Both the position numbers and the translations under genes were made by a program. DNA of 61,125 nucleotides, counting the filler, from Basidioascus undulatus (lineage: Eukaryota): the NCBI GenBank assembly GCA_000826855.1. It is 5 parts of 5 records of this genome, joined end to end, with 100 filler letters (N's around TTAATTAATTAA, not from the genome) between each part and the next. Parts side by side here need not be neighbours in the genome. Positions count along the whole stretch, not along the records: positions 1 to 12,166 come from JTLS01000940.1; 4 more parts are not named here. One strand, written 5' to 3'. The notes beneath the pieces were generated by a model. That model saw nothing but the letters and a program-made list of their open reading frames with translations. It made no database searches and had not been told where the DNA came from. Shown piece by piece: positions 1 to 48,999 of the stretch (positions are counted from its first letter, which is position 1; every line of letters begins with the position of its first letter).

Positions 1-240
1 TGGTGGGCGAGGTGGGGTGGGGCGGGGGTGTGAGAAGACTCGGTTTTGGGGAAGGTGGAAGGAAAGACACACAGTTTACCACCAAGCAGCTTCGCATTGA
101 GCGTGATCACGCACGACCCGATCGAGACGAGGCTGACGACGCCCGTGAATACTGCGAGGGACTGTTTTTCGGGAGCCTGGTGGGCGAGGTGGGGTGGGGC
201 GGGGGTGTGAGAAGACTCGGTTTTGGGGAAGGTGGAAGGA
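1..240. repeat. 63-bp exact direct repeat (1-63 and 178-240) forming the 3' portions of two consecutive Yip4 introns
   Basis: TGGTGGGCGAGGTGGGGTGGGGCGGGGGTGTGAGAAGACTCGGTTTTGGGGAAGGTGGAAGGA occurs identically at both positions. Confidence 0.9.
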
Positions 241-963
241 GGGAAAGGGATAGGGAAGGGGAACGGAGGAAGGGAGCGAAGACACACGTTGATGGAGAGG
301 AGGATGGCGAGTGCTAGACAGAGGATGAGCGGGCCCCAGAGGTCCCAGTCCTGCTCGGGGGAGACGGGAGGTCAGAAAGGTTGACGGAGGAAGGCTGTTA
401 GGTGGGGACAGGATGGGGGATGGGAATTGGAATGGGGAGAAGAGGAAGTGCGCACTTGGAGGACGTTCTCGTCTCGCGTCGGCCGGAGGACCTGGACGAT
501 CTTGGTCGATACCGCGCGGAGGTCGCGCATCTGCGGACCGGGGACCGCGTCTGAGCTGCCCATCAAGATACTCTACGCAAGAGGAGAAAGACACACGATC
601 GTAGCTGATACAGGTTCATCAAGCGTATTCACGCCGGAGTACCTTGTCTGTCCCCTCGCATCCCATCAGCATCTCCCTCTCCCCGCTCTCCAACCGACAC
701 ACCTCAGTCTGCACCCCGCCGAACCGCTCCCTCGTCGGACCATGTCCCTGACCCCCCGGCGCTGATCCAATGTTCCCCGAGGGCGCAGCGGACGGCGGCG
801 GGGCGGCGGCGGCGGACGGGGAGGGCGCGCCGAAGCCGGGGAGGTGCTCATCGTCGTCGTCGTCGTCCGCCTCGATGATACCCCCGCCGCTGTGGGCGGG
901 CGGGGAGACGGAGGAGACGAATGTGGATTGCGCGGTGTGCGGGGTGGGCGGGTCGGCGGACAT
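1..963 (-). CDS. YIP4: Yip1-domain Golgi membrane protein (Yip4/YIPF6-like), multi-exon, 3' end runs off the contig
   Basis: Spliced minus-strand translation from ATG at 963: ...TRYSGVNTLDEPVSATI / MRDLRAVSTKIVQVLRP / WDLWGPLILCLALAILLSIN / APEKQSLAVFTGVVSLVSIGSCVITLNAKLLGGK. TLDEP and WDLWGPL are Yip1-family motifs. Introns are GT-AG. Confidence 0.85.
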
Positions 964-1285
964 CGCTGTACGTTGGGATTCGGATTGATAGAGTGAGAGT
1001 ACGCTGGCTGGGACGTGACCGCACGACGCGACGGCGAGGCAGGCGTGCTTACGTAAAATATAGTGGTTTTCATAGAGATTGAAAGCAGCGCTTGAATTCG
1101 TGCAATTCGCGAAAGCCGGCCGGCGAAGCTCGGATCGGGAAGGGCGCCCTCTCGCTGCTGCTGCTCTTGCTCCTGCCGTCGTCGTTCTCTCTAACTCCGC
1201 GGGCCCTCTTCCTCCCACCCCCGCCCCCTAGCCCCCCTTCTCCTTCTCTCTCTCTCGACCAAAAATACAAAACACCAAAAAGGCC

Positions 1286-2076
1286 ATGTTCCGCCCCGCC
1301 CTCCTCCGCACCACCGCCCGCCGCGTCCCCTCCGCCGCCGCGCGCCGCCAGGCGTCCTCCAACGCCGGCGAGCAGGCGGGCAAGGCCGCTGAGTCCGCGC
1401 AGAAGGCCGTCGGCGCCGTGACGGCCAAGGCGTCTGAGCTTGCTGGCGCTCTGGGGAAGCGCGCTGAGGGGCTTCTGGGTGGTGAGTGCGACGTCTTCTT
1501 CGGGCTTCCCTTCCCCTTCGTCCTTCCCTCCCTCCTTCCTCCTCCTGCTCCTCCTCGCCTTCTTCCTCTCCTCTCTTGTCCCTTTCCTCTTTTAAGAGAA
1601 GCTGAAACGGAGGCTGATTGGGACCCCGCAGCCTACCGCGAGCCCGTGACCTACAACCTCTCCGTCTTGAAGGAGCTGCTCAAGCAGGTGTACGTGCGCG
1701 AGCGGCTCGCGCCGCCGCGCTCGCTCTCGGACGTCCTCTCCACGTACGCGTCCATCGGCGCGCGCGCGGCAAACCCGCAGTGGTGGGCCAAGGCCTGGAG
1801 CGAGGGCGCCCTCCTGTCCGCTGGCGTCGTCGCCCTCGAGGCGTACGGCATCTTCAAGGTCCGTCCCCTATCGTCGCTTTTCTTTATTCCCTTCCCTTCG
1901 CCTTGCTCTTTCCCCTCTCCTCCCCGTTTCCCTTCCTTCTCCCATTTTCGTGCTCTATTCTTTGCTTCCGGTCCGGTCCTCATTGACCTTCCTCCTTTTC
2001 GCGTCCCCAGCTCGGCGAGATCGTGGGCAAGAGGCGTCTGGTCGGCTACGCCCCGAAGGAGGACGCGCACCATTAG
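1286..2076 (+). CDS. ATP20: Mitochondrial F1Fo ATP synthase subunit g; exons 1286-1481, 1632-1858, 2011-2076
   Basis: Arg/Ala-rich mitochondrial presequence, then YREPVTYNLSVLKELLKQVYVRERLAPP ... VALEAYGIFK/LGEIVGKRRLVGY, matching the subunit g GEIIGRR..VGY signature. Splice sites are canonical and in frame. Confidence 0.92.
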
Positions 2077-2910
2077 AGGCGACCGATCGGGCTGGCAGGG
2101 GTTGGTAGGGAAACTTCTATTTGTACAGGGAGAGAGGGAAGGGAGGTGGGACCGGAACCATATCCTGCATCCTGCATCGTGCTTCTCGATCGTGCTTCGC
2201 TTCATGTGTCTCCGCCGCTCACTCAACCCGCAAGCGCACGGTCGTATTCGACCGACGGCACGCATCCCTCGATCCACGGCCTGCAGATGGTACTCACGAA
2301 CAGGTGTACCGGACGTTCACGTTCTCTCGCTCGGTCGCTCACTCACCTACCAACTGCCCTGCCCTCGCATCTCCACGTCGCGTTGGCGTCCTCCCCAACC
2401 TCGACGTCATAGATCACTCAGCTAGATATGCACTGATACGGCGCGTGCACCGGCCGCGTTCCTCCCGACCGACTGCACACGCAGACGTGGAGGAACTAGT
2501 TAACAGACAAGACAGACTGGCCGACCGCCCGATCCATCCGTTCCAACTCGGTCCTCTCGCCCTACGCCGCCGCTCGCCCGCGCTCCGTGCAACGGTGCGT
2601 CGTCTTGCGTGCGATGACTACTCCGGCGCCCAGACAAACACGGTTGGTGCGTCTTCCGGGCCACGCACTACCAGTCGGAACGCGTGTAGATAAGCCCGTA
2701 AACAATCATTGATGTCGACTTGTTCGGAGCAAAGTAAGCCATGCATATTGACCGCATAGCGACAGTACACAGCCATTCACCATGTGGCTCCGCGCCGTGT
2801 GTTAACTGGCTTGTGGATCGCGACGCGCCAGTCCTTCGACCATTCTCCTCCCCGCACCGCGGCGAAACCAACAAATCTGCGCTGGCGCGGGGACGGTTCT
2901 TCTCTTTGCT

Positions 2911-3834
2911 TTACCGTGCTTCCCCCGCTGTCCGCAGGAACGGCGTAAGCGGTCGCCGTGTCCCCGGGCATTCGTCGTCCCCCCACACCCACTCCCCTGC
3001 CAACAACTTTCTCTGCTGTGTGCCTTGCATTACATGCAGACGTTCATCCATACTCTTGAACTTTTTAACCGATAGCCTCATATGACGCGCGGCTTCTTCC
3101 ACCGCAGCAAGCTTCAGCTTCGCCCATGCTACCGCCTCCTGAGCCGTCGCCTTGGGGTCCATCCTGCAGCACGCCTCCGACAACCACGCCATAGGGCCTA
3201 CAAACCGCGGATGTTTGCCCTCCAAGCACGCATCAATACGCTCGTCGTCGCTGGACCCATCAACGCTCATGCCGGTCATGAGCTCGAACATGGTCACACC
3301 AAGAGCGTACATCTCCGATTTGGGCGTGTAGGGACATCGTGTGCGCCAGAGCTCCGGGGCCGCCCAGCCGGGGTTCCCCCCCACATCCATCTGCCACAGG
3401 CGTCGGGGGCTCGTGCCGCCGGGCGTGAGAATCCCCCCCCGGTCGAAGTTGATCAGGACGAGCGAGCGTGAGTCCTCCTCAACATGATGTTGTACGACTT
3501 GAGGTCGCCGTATGTGACACCGCGGGTGTGGATGTGCGCGATGACTTCGCAGATCGCGACGACCCATTCGCAGCGCTGCTTGACGCCCTTCGGGCCTTGC
3601 GTGGACTTGAGCGTGTCGAAGATGGATATATCGTAGCGCTGCATGACGAATCCCTGCGGTAGTGGGCGGAGAACTCGGACGAGATGGGGATGAGGCGGGA
3701 TTGCGGTGAGAACTGAGTATTCGTGCTTGGCCCGCCAGCCGGTCTTAAAGACCTCCTGGCCGTGAAACCGCAGCTTGTGTAGAGAAGAGAGGAAGGGGAC
3801 TTGAGAACGAAGACGTCGTCAGAGGGACGGTCAT
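2911..3834 (-). pseudogene. Divergent protein kinase-like gene, frameshifted
   Basis: EVFKTG...HEYSVL...HPHLVRV...HIHTRGVTYGDLKSYNIML in one frame. It continues in another frame as LVLINFD...GNPGWAAPEL...YTPKSEMYALGVTMFELMTG. A second frameshift lies near 3800-3830. Confidence 0.7.
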
Positions 3835-5077
3835 TTCGATCGAGGATACAGGGTGAAAGCAAACGAAGAGGTGGAGGAAGACTGAAAGAGTAGAGTCGGA
3901 AGCAAGAACGAAATGCTGTCCACGTCGGAAGACTGGGAACGTGGAAGGAGGCTGTGCGCGCTGCTCTACTCGTACTGAAAGTAACAAGACTTTTGAAGTA
4001 GATTAATAAAAGTAAGCGGTTACGAGTGACTCTGCTGATATAGCGTTTGAGGGCCGAATACCATCACCCCAGCGAGCCTGTAGCCAATTCGAAATACCAG
4101 TGTCATGACGTGGGGTTTTAGGCTCTATATCCCACAGAAGACTCCAATAGATTAGCTTAATGATATACGCCACGGACATTTGTGAAGCGATTAGACCGAT
4201 CTTTTACCGTCCTCTGCGTACAAACTGCCCTGACTTGAGCCCATTTGATGTATCACCATCACTGTATACCCCTCCACAAAAGACAGCATTTTCAAAGACG
4301 GCAACAGCGGAAGTTGTGAACCCCTTGTTCCATTGGGGCAAAGGCGTCGGTACTGATGCATGCAAGCTGCTCCGCTGTGCATGCAATACTCAAATACAAG
4401 GTGGCTGGGAAACCAGCACCGCAACGAAACATCACATTGAAAGGATTCATAGGAGTTCCGTCGGGCCTTCCCTGACCACATTGACGTCGTAAGTTTAAGT
4501 TTATTCAGATTGTAAGAAAACTTCTTAACTGTGCGGAGGCTGACATAGCTGGGGCGGTCAAACACAGCGCGCCCGGTGTTCAGGGCGTTTGGGAATCCTC
4601 CCTCGTCGCACGCTGGCTTTGGAACCTGCACATTTCACTGCGGGGCTGGATGGATGAAAAGCCGTATTCAACTCGATCAGACTTCTCAGGCCCCCTATGC
4701 GCTAGCTGCGCGCCCACATCGGCGTGCAACCAACGCCGACCAGAAGTGAAGCAATGGCCGAGCTCCCCTGGAGCTCTCAATCGATCAGAGGATACCAGAA
4801 GGGGATAGTGTCTACTTATACATCAACTTGAAAACGCGTCAATCAAATAACAGGGACATAAGAAGCGGGCAGGCACCGGGCAGCTGGGTAACGAAGGCAG
4901 GAATTGGTAGGAGAGGGTGGGTGGGTCACTAGGACGGGTAAAGAAGGAGAGATGCATTGCATTGAGTGATGGGACGAAGGAAAGTGGGAAGGAAGGAATG
5001 TGTGGGGGAGGGTGGGTGGTCGGGTAACGATGTTGGGCGGGTGCGGCATAGGCGGGCGGAGGGGGTCGAGCGGCGGA

Positions 5078-6255
5078 TCACAAGATGACGCATTTCCTCC
5101 GCGTCGATCCTCTCCTTCTCCACCGCTCCGCCCCGAGCGCGCTTCCGCTCGCGACGACCCTCCTTGCGGCCTCCTCGAACGCCTCCTCGACATTCACGCG
5201 CATCTTTGCGCTCGTCTCGAAGAAGGGGACGCCGTCCCACACTGAACGTCCGGCGGGTTGTGATTGGAGGGCGGGGGAGGAGGAGGAGGCGGAGCGGGCA
5301 GAGAGCGGGATGGAGGAGGGGTTGAAGGGGGACGGGAAGGCGCGCTCGAAGATCAGGTCGGACTTGTTCCCTGCTAGGACCATCGGTAGCTGGGCGACGG
5401 GAACAGCCCAGTCAGGTTCCGAGGCAGGACGTGGGGATGGGTAGTAGGCGGGGCGCACGGGTTTGGATCGATCATACTCCTTTATCCGAGCGATGTCTTC
5501 CATGATGGGACCAAGATCGCGGAAGGTAGAGAGGTTGTTGAGCGCAAAGACGAGGACGAAGCCGTGCGCATGTCGGATATGCGACTCGCGTAGGGAGACC
5601 ATTTGCTCGACTCTGAAACCATCGTAACCACCGTCAAGAGAGCGTCAGCTAGGGTGTTGGGGAACAGGAGGGTCGGGGGCGGCCCGACGCACCCTGCCGT
5701 ATCGGTGATCTCTAACCGGAATCGGTCCGAGTCGATGGTCCGCTCTGCGGTGTACGCATCCTCGACAGTCGGATCACTACACAGCTCTCACCCAGTCCCG
5801 TCAGTTTGCTCATTCATGGCATGAGGAGCGCAGGGATTCAGTGTTGGGATGAGAGTAGATGGACGCACTAGCTCTCGAAGTATGCGCCCGTTACAAACCG
5901 CACAGTCTGTCGCGATGGGGAAATCCGAAGAGTGATGAGCGTTCCCGGGTCCGACGACTCAGTTCACGATCCCAAAGGGTGCAGTACGGAGAGCGAGACC
6001 CAAGAAAAAGAAGAGAGTGCAACCGCGACATCGCAATGCAAGCCGCTGACGCCTCCTCCTTCTTCCTTGCAAAATCATCTCCCAAATCTCTCTCTGATCA
6101 TGATGAACCGCAGGCAGCTTGACCACTCACCATACACGACTTCCCCACTCCTCCCGCTTTCCTCCGCACAAGCCCCGCGATCAGCCGGGCCAGGACATGA
6201 AGGAATAGCCGGAGGACGCACCTCCGAGCACGCAGAGCCTGATCGTGCGCAACAT
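5078..6255 (-). CDS. RSR1: Ras-family small GTPase, Rap/Rsr1-like, multi-exon with a 26-nt P-loop exon at 6131-6156
   Basis: Spliced: MLRTIRLCVLG/AGGVGKSCM/TVRFVTGAYFESY/DPTVED...EITDTAG/VEQMVSLRE...LAGNKSDL...FFETSAK...KCVIL*. G1-G5 boxes and a CaaX end are present. Confidence 0.88.
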
Positions 6256-8468
6256 CGCGGGGTTGGGCGTACGGCGGTCTACCGCGCAGAGATTCGAGGA
6301 GAAGGAGGTGATGAAGGTGAGGAGGAGAGCGGCGCAGGGGCGAAGGGGCCGAGGAAGACAGTCGTGGAAGTTGAATTGGGAGTGTGCGTGCGTGCCTGTG
6401 CGCGAGAAGAGCCCGCGACGGTCGGCGAGTGTAATTCAGAGCCCCGGACGCGCGCACGTGCGAATTGCTGAAAGCGCAAAGAAAGGGACACTGTCTGGAA
6501 ATCAGACTGCATCTGGGAAGACGTGCAGAAATGCACAGAACATGTAGATGCTGCGCTTTTCAAGCATATCGATATGAGGGAACGCTGGACAGTTAGTGGG
6601 TGTCTGCCCCACAATAGGAGTCCCATAATAGGGTCCTTTCGGTACCTGGCTCAATATGCATGCGCCATTTTGCGCGACGGAGACTTGTTCTTGCCTTGTT
6701 CAGTGCTGTTCTCCTGTGGGAAGGGCACGGAAGTTTGCCTCTTTCATAGGGCCATGTGTTCATGGATCCGGTATGGAGAGTTGTTACAGATCGGCATGAC
6801 CCTCTTGCTCTCACCCGGCCGGCAACACGCAGAAAGACGTAGACGTGCAGTGTATTTCAGACCAGTGAAAACGGTCAGGAACCTCCACACCAAGGGCACT
6901 TTCCTATCCTGTCCGCAGGCCTCGTCCACTCCCGTCCAATATGGCCGCATTGAAGAGCCTCCGCCCAATCTCCAATTGCAGCGTGAAGGCATAAAGCCCG
7001 GAGTGTGCTTTGTCAGTAACAACTGTACCGATCCGATGGGTCGTGAGATCTAATTCTAGACTGATCCACCAGAAAAGCTTGGATGAGTGGAGATCTTGGG
7101 AGACCGAACAGCACAGGAGCATTGCGAGACGTGTAAAGGCCAGCGAGAAGCGCTAGGATGCACTCACGAGCAGTGCGTATAAATGTATTGATGATCATTG
7201 TAGGTTTAAGCATACTCTGAGAAGACGACTAAGAAGCTTGATGCGCATGAGGTCCGCCTTCCTGACGGAGAGCTTGCGGGAACCTCGGGCGACGTTGGCC
7301 GACGTCGCCCTCCGTGCACACAGACACGACACTATCGTCTTTCTAACCGCTGTCAATCAAATTCACTCAGGCTTTGGATCTTCTTGACCTCTGGTACTTC
7401 AAGATAATTCTAGTGAAAGGCTGGGGAATGCCATGCTGGCCACACCAGGGCGGGCAACACATATGCGGACTGTGTTGCGACATTCGGAAAAGAGGAAGAT
7501 TCTGTGATACATACGAAAATTAAACAAGCAATTCCGATGCAGGATACGACCCTCTAGCTGCACAATTTGCCCAGTGCTGTCTCACTCCTCAGCAGCCGGC
7601 GACGACAGTTGTCCTCGCGCAGAGTGCTGCATACTGCAACCCTATTTATATTCAGCAAAGGACTCGGATCTCACCAATGTCTTCAATGAAACATTCTGTT
7701 CCTCGCTGCACTGCGTAACCATCGGCAGGGGCTCCCATTCACGCGCTGAACATCGTGCACATACACGTAAGTTACACATACGTGCACTCGAGCAGCGTCT
7801 CACCCCTAAACGTACGGTCCCTCACCCGCTCTTTTACCACACCCTACTATTATATATCTCACAGATACACGCCGTACTCACCCACCCGTATCTCGCGTCC
7901 CGCCGCCAGCCTTCTCAAACTGCGCACACACCCAGGCCGACCTCGATTGAATACCGCATCGGACAGGTGATGTAACTGAGATACTTAGAGTAAAATTCCA
8001 GATACATACTCAAGTGACGAGGAAGTCGGCCGGGGGGAAGATTGTTGCCAGTTGGGTGTTGGGAGTGTGCTTCACAAGGCGCAGGCTACAATGCAGAAGA
8101 GGTGCAGTAAGCCACTCCGACACTGAGTGATGTTTCGCTCTCACCTTGAGCAGAAGCGCAATAAATTGAAAATAGGGGGCGGGGGGGGGGAGGCTTTTAA
8201 TCCGGGACGCGTTCAGGTTTCGCTGGCAGTAAAACTCCGCAAGTTTACTGTCTGGGTGATGATAGGGTGTGGTGAAAGTGGGCATTGGGAAAAGGAACAC
8301 AACATTTGGTGGGCAAACCTGTCAATATTCGACAACCCAATTTGCCCACTGAATGCTGAAGCTAAAAATGCATGATCATCTCTGTCGGGCTTCCTGCCGA
8401 GCTATTTGAAACGTGAAAGAAAAATCGAATTTTGATTGCCGTCCTCATTAATCTGATGGACAGCCGAT

Positions 8469-8540
8469 TACCAAAGGTTGCGCGTTCGAGTCGCGTACCG
8501 GTCGGGCCGGTTGGCGCAATGGCAGCGCGTTGGTCTTCGG
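8469..8540 (+). tRNA. Circularly permuted tRNA-Arg(UCG): 3' half (positions 38-73) at 8469-8504, then 5' half (positions 1-37) at 8505-8540
   Basis: 3' half: T ACCAA AGGTT GCGCG TTCGAGT CGCGT ACCGGTC G. 5' half: GGCCGGT TG GCGC AATGGCA GCGC G TTGGT CT TCG G. All four stems pair when the halves are swapped. Confidence 0.88.
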
Positions 8541-8545
8541 TTTTT
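8541..8545 (+). terminator. Putative RNA polymerase III terminator (T5) directly after tRNA position 37
   Basis: TTTTT immediately follows ...CTTCGG. Confidence 0.6.
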
Positions 8546-8849
8546 GCTCCTTAATTTTTCCCCCACTTAAAGTGGGATAGTAGTTTTCGTTAGTAGTTAT
8601 CGGAGTGTACAGCTCAGAGATACATTATTGGTCCCCTGGTGAAGAAGCTGTTCAGCCTGGGGAATTCATTAGAAAGACTTGTCGTTTGTGGTCGGCCCGT
8701 TCCACGTTCAATTCGAACCTAGTCACTCAATGGTGACCCTCTTTGGAAGCTCTGTGACGACTGCATGTATCTCTCGACTTGTCTATAGCTCGAGGACACC
8801 CATATTCTACATCGTTCCCCCTATCCATATAATACCGCATAAGCAAAGT

Positions 8850-9806
8850 CCAGATGCTCTTCATGAAGACTTCCCCGCGGAGGACGCCGACCTGGTGTTG
8901 GTATCGTCCCATGGTATAGCTTTCAAGGTAAGTACCGAGCCCCGTTGCTCGCTGAAGCACGAATCGAGAGTGATTCCGGTGGAATAAGGTCCATCGCGAC
9001 TACCTCAGAGCGGCCTCGTCCGTCTTCAACGACATGTTTTCCATGCCGTCCCCAGAGGCTCCTTCCCCCTCGACAATGTCGCTGGACGCACCCTCTCTCG
9101 AGCTCACGGAGACGTCCGACGTCCTAGCCTGCGTCCTTCGCTTCATCTATCAAGGCCTTATCGATTTACCAGGTCTTCTCGAGCCCTTCTCTCTCACTCC
9201 TGCGGGGTGGGCGGACCTCGCCAGCGCAGTTGATGTCTCCCGCGCCGGGGAGAACGTGTCCCTGTACCTTTTCGGCCTCCACGCCGAGCAGAGGGACGAG
9301 CCGGGGGTAGTTCACCGAGTATTCGCCTGCGCCGCCCTCGCAGGATGCACACGCTCGCCCGCATCGCTTTGCGCCGGCCGCCCAAGCATGGGGGCATCCT
9401 CCTGGTCGACCGGTTCTGAGAGATCTGGCGTGACGCGCTGCCCACGTCGTACCTCCTCGGGCTGCATCAATTTCACACCCTGCACGCGGCATTCTTCGGC
9501 GATCTCCACGCGGACGACTCGACCTGCGTCTGAACCGCAGTGGACTCCGAGCATGTCCTGGCGGTCTGGACACGCGTCAAGGGGCGGCTCGCGCTGGTCC
9601 TCGAGCCTGTGGGGCTGTCGTTCAGCCGGGAGGAAAAGGAGGCGGGGAAGCCGCAGTTGGAGATTGAGGGCCAGCTTCCGGAGGCGCGTAACTTGGGGCT
9701 TCGCCAGCTGCTGTTGGTGTCACGAGGGAGTTTTGGCGGCGGTGGCAGGAACTTCTGTCGGAGGTGCAGGTCAAATGAAGAGCTCATTGAAGCTTGTGGG
9801 ATGTAG
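8850..9806 (+). pseudogene. BTB/POZ-domain protein, probably degraded in its 3' part; start uncertain
   Basis: DADLVLVSSHGIAFK/(intron 8928-8988)/VHRDYLRAASSVFNDMFSMP...LELTETSDVLACVLRFIY is a typical fungal BTB domain. The downstream coding-like sequence shifts frame and has an in-frame TGA near 9531. Confidence 0.65.
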
Positions 9807-10485
9807 TTATTCTTTAATCTACTACCGTAGCTTGGGCAATGAGCATGCTGCATCTCGACACCGAGTTTCGGATCCTTGAAATTGACTGCAGCCAGCGCAC
9901 CGTTTCGCGCTGCAGACCGCAGGATGCTAGGTGATTATGAGCTGCCACCGTAACGTGTGCATCCATTACCCTTGTACATAAGTGCCTTACATTCAGTAAG
10001 AACTCAAGACTGAGGAAAGTCTGCCATCGACGATCGTGAGGCAACCGAGATGACTATCTGCCTCACCCGGAGATCTTGAACCTCTATCGTATGTCCACAG
10101 AATCTGAAGAAGATTGAAGTGACTTGTAGTCTTCGGGATCATGGAAGAGGGAGGGACGAGGGGTCCGCAATGCTGCTCAGCTTAGTGGCAGTCAAGGTGA
10201 AAGGGTGGCGAAGGCCAGCCTGTCCAAACGGGCAGTCTTTCGCTCTTCGGTCTGAGACTGGCCACCTCCAGAGTATATAGACGGTGTATGTTATGGTTTA
10301 TCAAAATCTACAAAGTTATGCCTGTTGGACTTGCACGCAGCCGGCAACTTGCTGCTTTTTGACAACGTACGACGGGCCCGCTCTAGTACTACTACACCTA
10401 GCCGAGCGTGACCTCAATCCGCGACCGACGCGCCTTCCCTCCTTGCCATCAACCTCGCTCTCCTTGAAAGCTCAGCTCGCCCAGC

Positions 10486-12166
10486 ATGGCGCCAAAGCCG
10501 CGCGTTTTCATAGATCTGTACGAGTACCCAGCGTCTTCCACCAGGAATATTGCGCTGACGTGCTCCAATGTGCAGCGCGATCGAAGGCCAGCCGGTCGGT
10601 CGGTACGTCTGCTCTTTTGAGATCTTCGCCGAGGGCGGATCCGCTGACGCAGGCTTGTGGGTTGAAACAGGGTGATATTTGAGCTGCACACCGACACAGC
10701 GCCCAAGACGAGCGAGAACTTCCGCGCGCTGTGCACGGGCGAGAAGGGGCTCAGCGCCGCGGGTGTGCCGCTCTATTACAAGGGCAGCATCCTGCACCGG
10801 GTCATTGCCGGGTTTATGGTGCGTCATGATTGTCAAGACGGGGACTTAGTGATGGTCTTCTAATGAAGTGGGAGTGCAGGTGCAAGGCGGTGACTTCACT
10901 GCGAGGAATGGGACGGGAGGAGAGAGCATCTACGGCGGGACGTTCGCGGACGAGGACCTCAAGACTCGCATGCCGGACGCTGAAGGGTGCGTTTGCCGGT
11001 TCATATGGGGGGTTGGTGTGTCAAGAAGTAGCTTACGGCGAGTACCACAGGCTTCTGGTGATGGCGAATCGCGGACCAAACACCAATGGATCGCAGTTCT
11101 TCGTCACGCTCCGGCCGTGCCCTCAGTGCGTCGCGCATGCCGTTCATCATTCTCCCTTTTCTAACCCCTTTACCTTTCAACAGTCTCGATGGTAAGCATG
11201 TCGTCTTCGGGCGCGTCCTATCGGGCTACGAGCACATCGTCCGCATCTCCAAGATCCCTGCGGACGAGAAGGACCGGCCGATCCAGCTAGTCTCGATCTC
11301 GCACTGCGGCGAGCTTGTGCCTAAGCGCAAAGCTGGCGCACCCGCACCAGGTAAGCCTTGCCTTCCGCCCGGGTTGGCTATGAAGTTTTGAGACTGGGAC
11401 TGAGATGGATGCCTGGAATAGCTTCTCAAGCGGGGGACGAGCGCCGCGGACGGAGCATGTCCCGCCCGTACTCCTCCTCTTCGCGTTCTTCTTCCAGAAG
11501 CTCCCGCTCTGGGTCGGCCAGCAGCCGATCAGACTCGCGCTCGCGTTCCCGCTCCATCTCGCGCTCTCGTTCGCGGCGCTCGCGCTCCTACACCCGTTCG
11601 CGCTCCCGCCGCGCACGCTCCTACTCATCTTCCTCCTCGGCTTCTTCTCGCTCCGGTTCCCGCTCCCACATGCGTTCCCGGCGCGCGCAGTCCCCCTCGC
11701 GCTCGCGCTCTCGTTCTCCGACCCCGCGCAAGCGCTCCCCCACTCCTGGCCCGCCCGGCCCGCCCACCGAGGCGGACCTTCTGCGCGAGCGACTCCTCGC
11801 GGAGAAGGCCGAGAAAGAGCGGGCCGAGAAGCTCGCGCGGTTGGAGGAGCTCAAGCGGCAGCACGAGGAGGAGCGGCGGCGGGAGCGGGCGCGGGGGCTG
11901 TGGGACGAGAGAGAGGACCACCGGCGGCGGGAGGCGGAGGTAGATGAGGGTCAGTCCAAGATCAATTATCGCGGGCGGGGGTTCATGAAGTACCGGGAGG
12001 ACGACGCGGATGGCCGCGGGAGGCGCGGTGGCGGCAGTTGGGGCGGCAGGGGCGGCGAATATGGGGGCTATGACGGGAGGAGGGGCGAGAGGAACGGGAG
12101 GGGCGGACAAGGGAGAGGGACAGGGAGGGGACAACGTTTGGACGCGCTGGAGTACCATGTGGCTGG
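10486..12166 (+). CDS. Cyclophilin-type peptidyl-prolyl isomerase with C-terminal RS-rich and charged region (PPIG/SR-cyclophilin-like), truncated by contig end
   Basis: [11 protein letters not shown]...[25 protein letters not shown]...[34 protein letters not shown]...[16 protein letters not shown]...[11 protein letters not shown], followed by an SR-dipeptide tract at about 11460-11730. Confidence 0.92.
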
Positions 12167-12266
12167 NNNNNNNNNNNNNNNNNNNNNNNNNNNNNNNNNN
12201 NNNNNNNNNNTTAATTAATTAANNNNNNNNNNNNNNNNNNNNNNNNNNNNNNNNNNNNNNNNNNNN
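12167..12266. other. Artificial contig-join spacer (N44-TTAATTAATTAA-N44)
   Basis: N runs flank a six-frame stop linker; the same structure occurs four times. Confidence 0.97.
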
Positions 12267-24414: not shown

Positions 24415-24514
24415 NNNNNNNNNNNNNNNNNNNNNNNNNNNNNNNNNNNNNNNNNNNNTTAATTAATTAANNNNNNNNNNNNNNNNNNNNNNNNNNNNNN
24501 NNNNNNNNNNNNNN
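24415..24514. other. Artificial contig-join spacer
   Basis: N44-TTAATTAATTAA-N44. Confidence 0.97.
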
Positions 24515-33031: not shown

Positions 33032-36000
33032 TATCGCCCAGCGCCGCCCAACGCATCTCCAGGAGCATAGAGTGACTCGGGCCTGTAATGGTGGAGACGA
33101 GACAAGCGATCAGTTCCCCGCTTCCCATATTGCTGCACTGGAATCGGCGACTCACCGCTTTCCAAACAATGACTGAATCCTGGACAGCCTGTCTTCGTCG
33201 ACGGACGAGCGTACAGATGGAGAGGTCGGGGGAAGCTGATCAGCTGAGCAGGCTGGGGACATCGGCGTGCCGCCTAAGGAAAAGCGATCTGCACGAACAA
33301 CGTGGTTCTTCTATCAGCCCCACCGCGCTGCAAGACGAGAGCGTAGACACCAACTTACTCGGCGTCCCGCTGGAGTAACGGGGGTTGTTGGCTGTCGACG
33401 GCGAGGCTGGCGCGGTCGGCGTCGCAGCGCCGCCGCCGTTACGCTCCAGGTCTTCCGCCGCGTGTCGCGCGAGCACACGGCGAATAAACGCATTGAAGAC
33501 GTCACCCAAGTCTGCCAAGCGGCGCTCAATCCGCCCGGCATACTCCGGGTGCGCCTTCTGGAATTGGTAGAGCTCCGCGATGCCCTGTAACAGGACGAAA
33601 GGTGAGCGAAAAATTGCACGCTGCTCAACATTCGAGCGCACTACGCACCTGCTTGTTCGTCTCGCTCTCCGAGATCCGGTCGAAAATGAGACGCAGTTGC
33701 TCGCTGAGCTCCTCATCATCGCCCGACGCCGGGCTCGGGCCGGGGCTCGCCGCGACAGCCACAGCCGGCTGGACAGTCGCAGCGGACAGGGACATGCGCG
33801 ACGGCGTACCAAGCTTGAGGCTGGCTGGCCGAGCGAGGCGGCTCGGCGTACCCGACGAAGGTCGAGGCAGGCCGGACGACGCAGCAGGCGTGCCGCGCTC
33901 GGGCGTTTCCGGTCGGCCGTCGTCCGCGGTGGGCGTGGAAGCGGTGCCGTTCGCAGGTGCGGGGTGGGGTTGGAGACCGAGCGCGCCGGAATCGGTCGCT
34001 GAACCGGCTGCGGTGTTGGAGCGGTTGATGAGTCGGAAGAGGTACATGTAGATGTTCGAGTCTTCGGGAGCGGGGAAGAAGTCCATCTTCTCGTACACGC
34101 CCTCGCCGTAGACGGCTACATGGGAAAATGGCAGTCAGACACACTCGCTCTACCTAGCGAACGCGGCGCTCGTTTCTCACCGACGATGCTCTGCACGATC
34201 GTCTTGACGGTTCTCAGCGGGGTGTCGCCCAAAGCCGTGTCCTCCGCCGCACGAGTACGCCATTCCATCTGCATGTGGCCGGCATCAGTCCAATCCCTAT
34301 CCAATAGCGCGGCTCAGCGTAAAGACTGACCGGAGGAATCTTCTGCAGGAACTTCTCGAGCGTCCAGAGGAGCTGGCTGGGATCAAGGCGCTCGGCCATG
34401 AGGTCCTCCTTGACGTTGCGCGCCGTCTTCCACACGCATTTGAGAACGAGCTCAGGCAGCTTCGCCTCGGGCGCGTCGGACGTGACGCCTTGCTCGCGCA
34501 GGCCAATCGTCGCAGCCGCGAGCAGGTCGAAGAGCGCACTGCGGAACGAGCCTAATTAGCATCACGCGCAGACCAGGAGGGAAGGGCGGCGGAACTGGCT
34601 CAAACGCACTCGAAGATTGCCGAAAGGTCCCCATGCGTGAACAGCCGAAGGAGGAGCATGTTGATGAAGCGCGACAGATCTTTGAGATCAGGGTTCTCGG
34701 CCGTCTGCAGAAGCCGCGTCGTGAGCTCCTCGAGCAGTGCGCGAAGCGAATCCGTCGAAAGCGAGCCAGCGAGCGTGGGCTGGTCGATAAACGCGTTGAG
34801 CGTTTGGATGAGGTGCTTCGCCAGCCGCAAGATCGGCTTCGTCCGCGCCTCGTCGTCGAGGACCTCGCGTAAACGCTCGAACGTGTGCATCATCTGCATC
34901 GTGATATTGGTCACGAGCCGATCGGCCTGCGCGGTGAGGTAGTCGGACGGTGACTCGAGCGCGCGTTGGATCAGCTTGAGGGAGTCGACACAGCGGTTCG
35001 GATCGTCGAAGTCGTTGATGATCAAGTGTAGCGCCTCGTTGAGCTCGTCCTCCGCTGACCTCGGCCGTCGAGGCGGCTGGTGGCTAAGCCTGTTCGGCTG
35101 GGTCACAGGCGGCGCCGACATGAGGTCGTCCTCCTCCTCGTATACGTCCGTCCGCGGTGGCGGCGCGCGAGCGATGGAGGGGGCTCGAAGCCTCGAGGAG
35201 GGAGCCGTGGGGAGCGAGAACGACGACGCGCTCGAACCGCCCGACTGGGGCAGCGCAGACGGACCTGGTCTGCCGAGCACCGAGGGCGGACGGATGCCTC
35301 GCGGACCACCGATTCTTGAAACGCCGGAAGGAGCAACGATTTTGCGGGGCGTGCCTTGACTAGAACCGCCGCCGTTGGCAACAGCGGGCGACTCGGACCG
35401 TGCGACGGACCGGGCGGACAGACGCGACTCGGATCGAGAGGAGGGAGCGGGAGAGACGGAGCGGACGGTAGCGGGGGAGGCCGAGCGGGCGAAGGCAGGA
35501 GAGGAGGGGTGAGCAGCGGGTTGAGCGAGACGGGAGACGGTGGCTGGTCGCGCGGGGGTGTTGGTGTCGGCCTTGATGGGGATGCGCTTCAAGCGCTCCT
35601 CGAGCATGCTGTGCTCTTTGGGAGGTAGCTTGCCGACGTACGACCATACTTGATCGCCAAGGATCTTATACGCCTCGCTGCAGATAGAATCAGGTGTTAG
35701 ACTTCGGTCGCAGCCGGGCTAGAGAAGGAAGACGGACCCTAGAGCGCCGAGTGCAGATATTCGGACAGAGGAATCGCGGTCCGAGATGAAGGCGGCGATG
35801 GCCGGGAGCGCCTTGCTCGGGTTGCAGACGTTGAGACCGTGGCGGTTGATGAGCGCGCCAAGCTCTTCGAGCGACTCTGCGCGGGTGCGAGCGTTCTTCG
35901 ACTTGACGCCGTGGTCGAGAAGCTGCAGGAGGATCTTGCTCGGGGCGAAGATGCGCGCCATGTTCTTCATGATCGCTCGGATACGAGCGCGGATTGCCTC

Positions 36001-36658: not shown

Positions 36659-36758
36659 NNNNNNNNNNNNNNNNNNNNNNNNNNNNNNNNNNNNNNNNNN
36701 NNTTAATTAATTAANNNNNNNNNNNNNNNNNNNNNNNNNNNNNNNNNNNNNNNNNNNN
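36659..36758. other. Artificial contig-join spacer
   Basis: N44-TTAATTAATTAA-N44. Confidence 0.97.
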
Positions 36759-48899: not shown

Positions 48900-48999
48900 N
48901 NNNNNNNNNNNNNNNNNNNNNNNNNNNNNNNNNNNNNNNNNNNTTAATTAATTAANNNNNNNNNNNNNNNNNNNNNNNNNNNNNNNNNNNNNNNNNNNN
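48900..48999. other. Artificial contig-join spacer
   Basis: N44-TTAATTAATTAA-N44. Confidence 0.97.

What the first reader, a model, noticed from the sequence alone, without database searches (positions are those of the whole stretch)
8469..8545. Circularly permuted tRNA-Arg(UCG) gene in a basidiomycete fungus
Seen: the 3' half (T38, ACCAA, AGGTT, GCGCG-TTCGAGT-CGCGT, ACCGGTC, G73; 8469-8504) lies upstream of the 5' half (GGCCGGT, TG, GCGC-AATGGCA-GCGC, G, TTGGT, CT-TCG-G; 8505-8540), followed by TTTTT. Swapping the halves gives a 72-nt cloverleaf: 7-bp acceptor stem (one G:U), 4-bp D stem, 5-bp anticodon stem, 5-bp T stem (one G:U), with U8, G18G19, U33 and the TTCGA loop intact. The break is at 37/38, the canonical intron site. 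I found no other 5' half upstream or 3' half downstream nearby. Established: permuted tRNA genes matured via a circular intermediate are described in Cyanidioschyzon merolae, some prasinophyte green algae, a chlorarachniophyte nucleomorph and Thermofilum pendens; I know of no fungal example. Inference: this may be a functional permuted tRNA that standard scanners miss, possibly the only decoder of CGA codons here.
Basis: partly seen in the sequence, partly recalled or inferred. Interest (0 to 1): 0.95.

Follow-up and report, generated by a model that had tools for sequence, protein, structure and literature searches.

The report
Back-to-front arginine tRNA gene in fungus
A fungal-type contig carries a complete arginine tRNA gene with its back half written in front of its front half, a layout reported only from a few algae and archaea; its flanks look like those of a working gene, but no RNA data or related genome could be checked.

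Summary
Window 8469-8504 is tRNA positions 38-73 and 8505-8540 is positions 1-37, with no base between G73 and G1 and TTTTT straight after position 37. Swapped by coordinates, ARAGORN calls a 72-nt tRNA-Arg(TCG); in native order it and Rfam's thresholds find nothing. Rotating every 72-mer of the window gave calls at this locus only. Contigs of two sequencing runs (2014, 2025) cross the locus without a difference, so a mis-join is unlikely.

The flanks look gene-like. The only two TTTTT runs in 2.4 kb of spacer lie at +1 and +15 after the 5' half. One of the two most A/T-rich 22-mers lies 32-53 nt upstream. Leader base -3 (G8466) can pair with C32, as splicing endonucleases need at a 3' splice site.

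Best reading (0.5): a working type II (37/38) permuted tRNA gene, the first in a fungus and the first with a zero-length intervening sequence.

Main rival (0.33): an intact-looking rearrangement relic.

I could test neither expression nor conservation: no genome is held, no RNA run is listed, and no fungal relative turned up. That it is the only CGA decoder is unsupported.

The parts
8416..8437 (+). A/T-rich patch (18 of 22 A/T), 32-53 nt upstream of the 3' half: candidate TATA-like upstream promoter element (inferred)
   Evidence: one of only 2 of 2380 22-mers with at least 18 A/T in the 6500-8900 spacer; top 0.12% of 22-mers in the window. Upstream TATA-like elements are the proposed promoters of algal permuted tRNA genes.
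8460..8468 (+). Leader to be cut off. G8466 (-3) can pair with C32 (8535), leaving a 3-nt bulge A8467-U8468-U8469 that holds the would-be 3' splice site. Alternatively 8462-8467 pairs with 8537-8542.
   Evidence: Sequence. [quoted passage not shown] The alternative 6-bp helix is in the minimum-energy fold.
8469..8504 (+). 3' half of tRNA-Arg(UCG): positions 38-73, with the T arm and a B-box-like stretch at 8483-8493
8504..8505 (+). G73|G1 junction with zero intervening bases: the single cut needed to make both mature ends (inferred RNase P site)
   Evidence: The junction is carried by the contigs of two runs.
8505..8540 (+). 5' half of tRNA-Arg(UCG): positions 1-37, with an A-box-like stretch at 8512-8522 and the anticodon TCG at 8537-8539
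8541..8545 (+). TTTTT straight after position 37: candidate RNA polymerase III terminator
   Evidence: TTTTT starts on the + strand at only two places in 6500-8900, namely 8541 and 8555; 59 starts in the 61125-base window.
8555..8559 (+). Second TTTTT, a candidate back-up terminator

Best explanation
A working, circularly permuted tRNA-Arg(UCG) gene of type II (break at 37/38) in a fungus, with a zero-length intervening sequence.

Inferred pathway:
1. RNA polymerase III starts a few bases upstream of 8469, directed by the A/T-rich patch and/or TFIIIC on the intact A and B boxes, and stops in the T-run at 8541.
2. The RNA folds into the tRNA body. Its two ends meet in an open anticodon loop. 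The leader supplies the C32:G(-3) pair and the 3-nt bulge.
3. The ruler-type splicing endonuclease removes the leader (before U38) and the U-tail (after G37).
4. The fungal Trl1-type ligase and Tpt1 join G37 to U38.
5. One RNase P cut between G73 and G1 makes both mature ends, so tRNase Z is not needed, and CCA is added.

The RNase P cut may come after ligation, giving a circular intermediate as in algae. It may also come before, giving a two-piece, split-tRNA-like intermediate. The second order would fit end maturation before cytoplasmic splicing, as in yeast.

Shown: the DNA layout and the flanking motifs. Inferred: every RNA step.
For: The swapped halves give a flawless 72-nt cloverleaf, tRNA-Arg(tcg). 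There is no stem mismatch, only two G:U pairs. It is unique among all rotated 72-mers of the window.

The two parts add up to exactly one tRNA, joined exactly at G73|G1 and broken at the canonical intron site. Random duplication and deletion would rarely give this.

Flanks. The only two TTTTT runs on the + strand of the 2.4-kb spacer lie at +1 and +15 after position 37. One of its 2 (of 2380) most A/T-rich 22-mers lies 32-53 nt upstream. Leader base -3 is G and pairs with C32, the same C32:G pair as in yeast pre-tRNA-Phe; this pair is needed for 3' splice-site cleavage.

Eukaryotic endonuclease finds its sites by distance from the tRNA body and needs no strict BHB motif. Fungi have the Trl1 pathway. 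An engineered permuted tRNA that begins and ends in the anticodon loop was circularised by RtcB in vitro.

Contigs of two runs from two studies cross the locus with 0 differences and without breaking. From that I infer that no second locus shares a 31-mer with either half, so there is no identical conventional copy.

CGA codons are in use: 6 of 60 Arg codons in 641 homology-supported codons.
Against: No RNA evidence of any kind, and no related genome to test conservation or compensatory change.

I found no precedent in fungi or any opisthokont.

No known permuted tRNA has a zero-length linker: the table quoted gives 1-74 bp, and at least 5 bp in eukaryotes. With only G73 between C72 and G1, the 1:72 pair cannot form before the cut. 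Whether RNase P can cut a closed acceptor loop is stated as unknown even for the longer loops.

The leader and trailer do not form a canonical helix-bulge-helix-bulge-helix. Only 2 of the 4 central pairs are possible. The energetically preferred helix (8462-8467 with 8537-8542) puts the 5' cut at a helix position.

The A and B boxes are in reversed order, which is unsuitable for standard TFIIIC binding.

The precursor fold is not more stable than shuffles (z = -1.51).

If the rearrangement happened in place, the T-run and the A/T patch could be inherited from a former ordinary gene at this spot.
Confidence: 0.5

Rival explanations
1. A non-functional relic. One route: an ordinary tRNA-Arg(UCG) gene was rearranged in place (tandem duplication, then loss of the outer halves). 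Another: a permuted or circular tRNA-derived RNA was copied back into DNA. It still looks intact because the event is recent. At most it binds TFIIIC through its B box.
For: Nothing shows expression or conservation. No RNA-holding run is listed, and no relative was found. The zero-length linker and the weak BHB depart from every described working permuted gene. The duplication-and-loss model is the accepted origin of permuted genes (recalled from Soma 2007 and Maruyama 2010, which I did not read here). An in-place event would keep the old promoter and terminator without any selection. Earlier notes of this scan describe scrambled tRNA pieces that look like recombination relics in phages (unchecked).
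Against: Neutral duplication and deletion would have to hit G73|G1 exactly, leave two parts that add up to exactly one tRNA, break at 37/38, and place TTTTT straight after 37. An RNA-copy origin explains the exact ends but not the two T5 runs, the A/T patch and the G at -3. Taken as independent, these come to roughly 8e-4 x 0.025 x 0.25 by my own estimate. There are no target-site duplications or remnants of the lost halves in the flanks. There is not one disabling change in 72 nt.
Confidence: 0.33
2. A transcribed tRNA-like RNA that does not decode. Examples: a closed-acceptor tRNA mimic of the YrlA or Y-RNA kind, a mimic of a nicked tRNA, or a source of tRNA halves.
For: The only Rfam match in the window at E up to 1 is YrlA (RF02553): 40.6 bits, E = 1.5e-5 for the whole window. 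It aligns T arm, capped acceptor-like stem and D arm in this same order, inside a stem made by the two ends. In the unprocessed RNA the acceptor would be a 6-bp hairpin with a 3-nt loop. Polymerase III signals would fit this reading equally well.
Against: The score is far below YrlA's gathering threshold of 69. Model positions 12-22 and 90-104 are deleted in the alignment; I take these, from recall, to be the Ro60-binding stem. The match therefore rests on the tRNA-like module alone. Unlike such mimics, this sequence keeps a complete anticodon stem, every anticodon-loop base and the discriminator, split exactly at the splice position. That is needless for a mimic. Ro60 in this fungus could not be checked.
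Confidence: 0.1
3. An assembly artefact: a mis-join or a collapsed tandem array.
For: The assembly is fragmented: the window is five pieces of about 12 kb joined by spacers. The two runs that hold the stretch may themselves be the source of the assembly.
Against: Logan's own contigs of two runs from two studies (2014 at word depth 17.8; 2025 at 47.1) each carry 8300-8700 in one piece with 0 differences, 0 gaps, no joints and no loose ends. By my inference about de Bruijn assembly, a tandem array of the 72-nt unit would make a cycle and break the contigs. They run 2571 and 10720 nt through unique flanks.
Confidence: 0.03

Closest known systems
Type II (37/38) circularly permuted tRNA genes of Cyanidioschyzon merolae, Ostreococcus, Micromonas, the Bigelowiella nucleomorph and Auxenochlorella (Soma 2007; Maruyama 2010; passages of PMC3978253, PMC13578239 and PMC12633428)
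   Same: The 3' half lies upstream of the 5' half on one strand. The break is at 37/38. No CCA is encoded. There is an A/T-rich stretch upstream and a T-run downstream. The halves swap into a canonical cloverleaf.
   Different: The organism is a fungus, not an alga. The intervening sequence is 0 nt, against 5-74 in the eukaryotes of the table. The trailer is only the U-run, so there is no outer helix and no proper BHB. No circular intermediate or mature tRNA has been shown.
L004, a metagenome contig with a permuted tRNA-Arg(TCG), found here; its organism is unknown, and I guess it is algal
   Same: Same isoacceptor. Same 36 + 36 nt halves. Identical D arm. Break at 37/38. The same C32:G(-3) pair with a 3-nt bulge. 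A T-run follows (T8).
   Different: L004 has a 15-nt linker between A73 and G1. It also has a 6-bp leader/trailer helix (CATTGC/GCAATG) outside the cut sites. The fungal locus has neither.
Thermofilum pendens permuted tRNA-Tyr(GTA) (Chan, Cozen and Lowe 2011; table and passage of PMC3978253)
   Same: It has the shortest described intervening sequence (1 nt), so it raises the same question of how a very tight acceptor loop is opened.
   Different: It is archaeal. Its break is at 59/60. CCA is encoded, so its loop is longer. It has a BHB-dependent endonuclease and also an intron.
YrlA / Y RNA-like A (Rfam RF02553)
   Same: The order T arm, capped acceptor-like stem, D arm, enclosed by a stem formed by the RNA's two ends. 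It is the only Rfam model that matches the native sequence.
   Different: The score is 40.6 bits against a threshold of 69, and the stem positions of the model are deleted in the alignment. YrlA is bacterial and Ro60-bound and has no anticodon. This locus keeps a full anticodon arm.
Ordinary intron-containing fungal tRNA genes (Sen endonuclease, Trl1, Tpt1; passages of PMC4090602 and PMC8479045)
   Same: Cut sites at 37/38. A C32:G(-3) anticodon-intron pair. A 3-nt bulge at the 3' site. The same enzymes would suffice.
   Different: What is removed is not an intron but the two ends of the transcript. The acceptor ends are covalently joined instead.

Membership tests
[quoted passage not shown] 2007) | 3' half upstream of 5' half, same strand, adjacent | tested here: met
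   8469-8504 is positions 38-73 and 8505-8540 is positions 1-37.
[quoted passage not shown] 2007) | Swapped halves give a canonical cloverleaf with the conserved bases | tested here: met
   ARAGORN tRNA-Arg(tcg), 72 bases; all 16 of 16 calls on rotated 72-mers are at this locus.
[quoted passage not shown] 2007) | [quoted passage not shown] | tested here: not met
   G73 is directly followed by G1, so the length is 0. Table 1 of PMC3978253 lists none shorter than 1.
[quoted passage not shown] 2007) | Leader and trailer form a BHB motif at the junction | tested here: inconclusive
   the C32:G8466 and C35:G8463 pairs and both 3-nt bulges are possible, but the two middle pairs are U/C mismatches and there is no outer helix. 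A competing 6-bp helix is more stable. Eukaryotic enzymes do not need a strict BHB.
[quoted passage not shown] 2007) | Upstream TATA-like or A/T-rich element and downstream T-stretch | tested here: met
   T5 at 8541 and 8555 are the only two in 2.4 kb. The A/T-rich 22-mer at 8416 is one of 2 of 2380. Function as promoter and terminator is inferred.
[quoted passage not shown] 2007) | Precursor, circular intermediate and CCA-tailed mature tRNA detected | not testable with these tools
   no RNA-holding run listed. DNA contigs only.
[quoted passage not shown] 2007) | Needed to complete the tRNA set, or kept in relatives | not testable with these tools
   no genome held; no relative found. The unbroken contigs only hint that no identical conventional copy exists.
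YrlA (Rfam RF02553) | Score at or above the family's gathering threshold, with the stem positions of the model present | tested here: not met
   40.6 bits against 69. Model positions 12-22 and 90-104 are deleted in the alignment.
Conventional tRNA gene | Detected in native order by tRNA scanners | tested here: not met
   nothing found in native order.

The most novel reading that the evidence does not exclude
A fungus makes a decoding tRNA-Arg(UCG) from a back-to-front gene with no spacer at all. One RNase P cut creates both acceptor ends, and the ordinary ruler-type Sen endonuclease with Trl1 closes the anticodon loop. This may run through a two-piece intermediate rather than a circle. It would be the first permuted tRNA gene outside algae and archaea. 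It would show that standard opisthokont tRNA enzymes can mature permuted precursors, so such genes may be hidden in other fungal genomes where scanners report a missing isoacceptor.
Probability: 0.45. Interest if true: 0.88.

Novelty: new variant of a known kind. Interest (0 to 1): 0.72.

Why it matters
In the passages I read, permuted tRNA genes are treated as an oddity of a few algae, a nucleomorph and one archaeon, tied to BHB-type processing.

A working one in a fungus would:
- extend the phenomenon to opisthokonts;
- test whether the yeast-type ruler endonuclease, Trl1 and RNase P can handle a permuted, spacer-less precursor;
- show that tRNA inventories made with standard scanners can be incomplete in fungi.

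The zero-length linker is a clean natural test of the question left open in the 2014 review: can RNase P open a closed acceptor loop?

Even as a relic it would be informative. Ends defined exactly at 73|1 and 37/38 would point to an RNA-level or circle-based origin.

Tried and rejected
Whole genome: none is held. I could therefore not look for a conventional Arg(TCG) gene, other permuted genes, Ro60 or the tRNA set.

Sequencing runs: 3 rows, 2 of them DNA holders; no RNA holder is listed. X3 laid nothing.

Metagenome scan with the T-loop and D-arm motifs and a gap of 19-49: 14 loci, none with the zero-linker length. By my reading:
- 10 are ordinary tRNAs closely followed by another tRNA (L001-L003, L008-L014);
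- 3 are unclear (L005-L007);
- 1 is a permuted Arg(TCG) with a 15-nt linker (L004).

No fungal relative was found, and the cap forbade a second scan.

Prokaryote genome scan with the zero-linker form: 0 matches.

Earlier findings of this scan: nothing for this genome, this sequence or look-alikes. The word searches gave only algal, archaeal and phage cases.

Taxonomy:
- The Atlas would not read the window's own protein, so I used the stored homologue P0001.
- The first 120 residues of the ORF at 8974-9876 found no homologue.
- Pfam on 133 ORFs of at least 130 aa gave only Ras and Pkinase, on 3 ORFs.

Second GTTCGAGTC motif at 34054: not a tRNA.

Remnants of the lost halves or target-site duplications in the flanks: none significant.

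Fold stability of the precursor: z = -1.51, uninformative.

I considered and rejected a repeat or SINE (single copy in the window, contigs unbroken) and a tRNA on the minus strand.

Full report
WHAT IS THERE.

On the + strand, 8469-8504 spells tRNA positions 38-73. These are U38, the 3' strand of the anticodon stem, a 5-nt variable loop, the T arm with a TTCGAGT loop, the 3' strand of the acceptor stem and G73. Without any base in between, 8505-8540 spells positions 1-37: the acceptor 5' strand, U8 G9, the D arm with G18 G19, G26, the anticodon stem 5' strand and C32 U33 U34 C35 G36 G37. TTTTT follows at 8541-8545.

In native order ARAGORN finds no tRNA in the window. Rfam finds nothing at its gathering thresholds. 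When a script swapped the halves by coordinates, ARAGORN called a 72-nt tRNA-Arg(tcg) with no stem mismatch and two G:U pairs.

As a control I rotated every N-free 72-mer of both strands in the same 36/36 way (roughly 1.2 x 10^5; the call did not print the number). ARAGORN made 16 calls, all 16 at this locus and its mirror image.

No other copy of either half or of the T or D arm is in the window. The 200-nt flanks hold no remnant of the "missing" halves: scores were reached by 320 to 990 of 1000 shuffles.

IS THE DNA REAL?

No whole genome is held. The window itself is five pieces of about 12.1 kb joined by N44-TTAATTAATTAA-N44 spacers. The contiguous context is therefore only 1-12166.

Two public runs from two studies (2014 and 2025) hold the stretch. 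Logan's contigs of each run carry 8300-8700 in one piece, 2571 and 10720 nt long, at word depths 17.8 and 47.1. There are 0 differences, no gaps, no joints and no loose ends.

These runs may be the source of the assembly, so they are not fully independent. But they are separate k-mer assemblies. A tandem array or a second locus sharing 31-mers with either 36-nt half should have broken the contigs. That is my inference about such assemblers, not a tool result. A mis-join is therefore unlikely (0.03). An identical conventional copy elsewhere is also unlikely, though a slightly different one cannot be excluded.

WHOSE DNA?

The cyclophilin gene in the same piece has 58-64-nt introns with GTGCGT 5' sites and a CTAAC motif, which is fungal in type (my reading).

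A Ras-like exon in the same piece has 2 homologues. The best is named by NCBI as a Wallemia ichthyophaga protein, at 35% identity. Wallemia is a basidiomycete.

An ORF in piece 3 has 26 homologues, the best at 38% identity. The nearest Atlas clusters of that best hit are "commonest Basidiomycota", with the phylum known for only 2-4 members each.

So fungal is well supported. Basidiomycete is probable but rests on distant hits.

FLANKS.

The locus sits in a 2.4-kb spacer of lower G+C (about 6500-8900).

On the + strand of that spacer TTTTT starts at only two places, 8541 and 8555. These are at +1 and +15 after position 37.

Only 2 of 2380 22-mers there have at least 18 A/T. One is 8416-8437, 32-53 nt upstream of the 3' half.

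The leader base at -3 from the would-be 3' cut (G8466) can pair with C32 (8535). This leaves the 3-nt bulge A-U-U38 with the cut after its second base. Passages of PMC8479045 describe this geometry as the one conserved feature of eukaryotic tRNA introns: a pyrimidine at -6 from the 5' site paired with a purine at -3 from the 3' site. The pair is needed for 3' cleavage, and in yeast pre-tRNA-Phe it is also C32:G. A G at that place has about a 1 in 4 chance (local G frequency 0.254).

These three features are what a polymerase III unit that starts just before U38 and ends just after G37 would need. They are indirect evidence only. If the gene was rearranged in place, the promoter-like patch and the terminator could be left over from an ordinary ancestor.

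HOW IT WOULD WORK (inferred).

1. Transcription runs from a start about 5-14 nt upstream of 8469 to the T-run.
2. The RNA folds into the tRNA body with an open anticodon loop. The cloverleaf-like permuted fold evaluates at -23.8 kcal/mol, or -33.7 with the end helix. The minimum-energy fold is -37.1.
3. The splicing endonuclease cuts before U38 and after G37. It finds its sites by distance from the body rather than by a strict BHB (passages of PMC4090602).
4. Trl1-type ligase and Tpt1 join G37 to U38. This is the fungal pathway, and most basidiomycetes lack RtcB.
5. RNase P cuts once between G73 and G1. This yields a 5'-phosphate on G1 and a 3'-OH on G73, ready for CCA addition.

In algae ligation comes first and gives a circle. 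In yeast the splicing enzymes sit in the cytoplasm. End maturation precedes splicing there by my recollection; I did not check that here. So here RNase P might act first and leave a two-piece, base-paired intermediate. I cannot tell which order applies.

DIFFICULTIES.

- No described permuted tRNA has a zero-length linker. Table 1 of the 2014 review lists 1-74 bp, with 5 bp the shortest in a eukaryote.
- With only G73 between C72 and G1 the terminal pair cannot form before the cut. The fold shows a 6-bp hairpin with a 3-nt loop.
- The review says it is not known whether RNase P can cut a closed acceptor loop at all.
- The leader and trailer give only a relaxed BHB. C32:G8466 and C35:G8463 can pair, the two pairs between them are U/C mismatches, and there is no outer helix. 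A competing helix (8462-8467 with 8537-8542) is more stable.
- The A and B boxes are intact but in reversed order.
- The precursor is not unusually stable (z = -1.51).

RIVAL READINGS.

(a) An intact-looking relic (0.33). It needs no new biology, and nothing shows expression. But neutral duplication and deletion must hit G73|G1, 37/38 and the T-run exactly. An RNA-copy origin leaves the flank signals to chance.

(b) A non-decoding tRNA-like RNA (0.1). The only Rfam match at E up to 1 in the whole window is YrlA: 40.6 bits against a threshold of 69, E = 1.5e-5. YrlA's tRNA-like module has this same T arm, capped acceptor, D arm order. But the model's stem positions are deleted in the alignment. 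This locus also keeps every anticodon-arm base, which a mimic does not need.

(c) An artefact (0.03), discussed above.

COMPARISON WITH WHAT IS KNOWN.

It works like, and by layout belongs with, the type II (37/38) permuted tRNA genes of red and green algae. It fails one listed feature, the presence of an intervening sequence. Two defining features, processing intermediates and necessity or conservation, could not be tested.

The metagenome scan gave a useful contrast in L004. This is a permuted tRNA-Arg(TCG) with the same 36 + 36 halves, the same D arm and the same C32:G(-3) pair. It differs in having a 15-nt linker, a 6-bp leader/trailer helix and a T8 run.

I found no report of a permuted tRNA gene in fungi:
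- 'permuted tRNA' + 'fungi': 16 papers, 12 listed.
- 'permuted tRNA' since 2015: 46 papers, 40 listed, none fungal by title.
- 'permuted tRNA' + 'basidiomyc': 2 papers, 1 listed, and it concerns ligases.
- 'circularly permuted' + 'tRNA gene' + 'fungal genome': 1 paper, unrelated.

A 2026 review and a 2025 preprint still name only algae (passages). The tRNAscan-SE 2.0 paper mentions permuted tRNAs only for archaea. I read passages of these papers, not whole texts, and no supplements.

THE CLAIM ABOUT CGA.

CGA is used: 6 of 60 arginine codons among 641 homology-supported codons. But an inosine-34 tRNA-Arg(ICG) normally reads CGA too (recalled). The tRNA set could not be inventoried. "Only decoder" is therefore unsupported.

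VERDICT.

The DNA-level finding is solid, and I found no published case like it. The gene-like flanks and the exactness of the permutation make a working gene the best single reading (0.5). Without RNA or comparative data it remains a hypothesis.

If it works, it is a new variant of a known kind: a new lineage and a zero-length spacer.

Noticed in passing
window 12167-12266, 24415-24514, 36659-36758, 48900-48999: The window is not one contiguous stretch. Five pieces of 12166, 12148, 12144, 12141 and 12126 nt are joined by N44-TTAATTAATTAA-N44 spacers. It looks like separate contigs sorted by length. Context arguments therefore hold only within piece 1 (1-12166).
   Followed up: yes
L004, minus strand, about 283-369 in the reverse-complement coordinates: A metagenome contig (G+C 0.43) carries a permuted tRNA-Arg(TCG): break at 37/38, 15-nt linker, leader/trailer helix CATTGC/GCAATG and a T8 run. 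Arg(TCG) is not among the permuted genes in Table 1 of the 2014 review.
   Followed up: partly
window 8461-8546: Rfam's YrlA model (RF02553) is the only family that picks up the native permuted tRNA (40.6 bits, below threshold). At relaxed thresholds it may serve as a crude detector of permuted tRNA-like genes.
   Followed up: partly
window about 10743: If the Logan contigs of both runs are colinear with the window, both end at the same coordinate, about 10743, just upstream of the cyclophilin exons. This suggests a repeat or heterozygous site there.
   Followed up: no
window 10853-12166 (+): A cyclophilin domain followed by a long Arg/Ser-rich tail (an RS-cyclophilin type gene). The cyclophilin part has 58-64-nt introns, GTGCGT donor sites and a CTAAC motif.
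   Followed up: partly
window 8300-8358 and 8578-8602: An 18-nt inverted repeat (83% complementary, 23 nt apart) lies about 110-170 nt upstream of the tRNA. A tandem 12-mer (TAGTAGTTTTCG / TAGTAGTTATCG) lies about 40 nt downstream. Their meaning is unknown.
   Followed up: no
L003, L008, L009, L010, L012, L013, L014: Seven metagenome contigs carry nearly the same pair of closely spaced tRNA genes. By my reading of the anticodon loops these are a CTT-anticodon tRNA followed 6-11 nt later by a CCA-anticodon tRNA. They are ordinary tandem tRNAs, not permuted.
   Followed up: no
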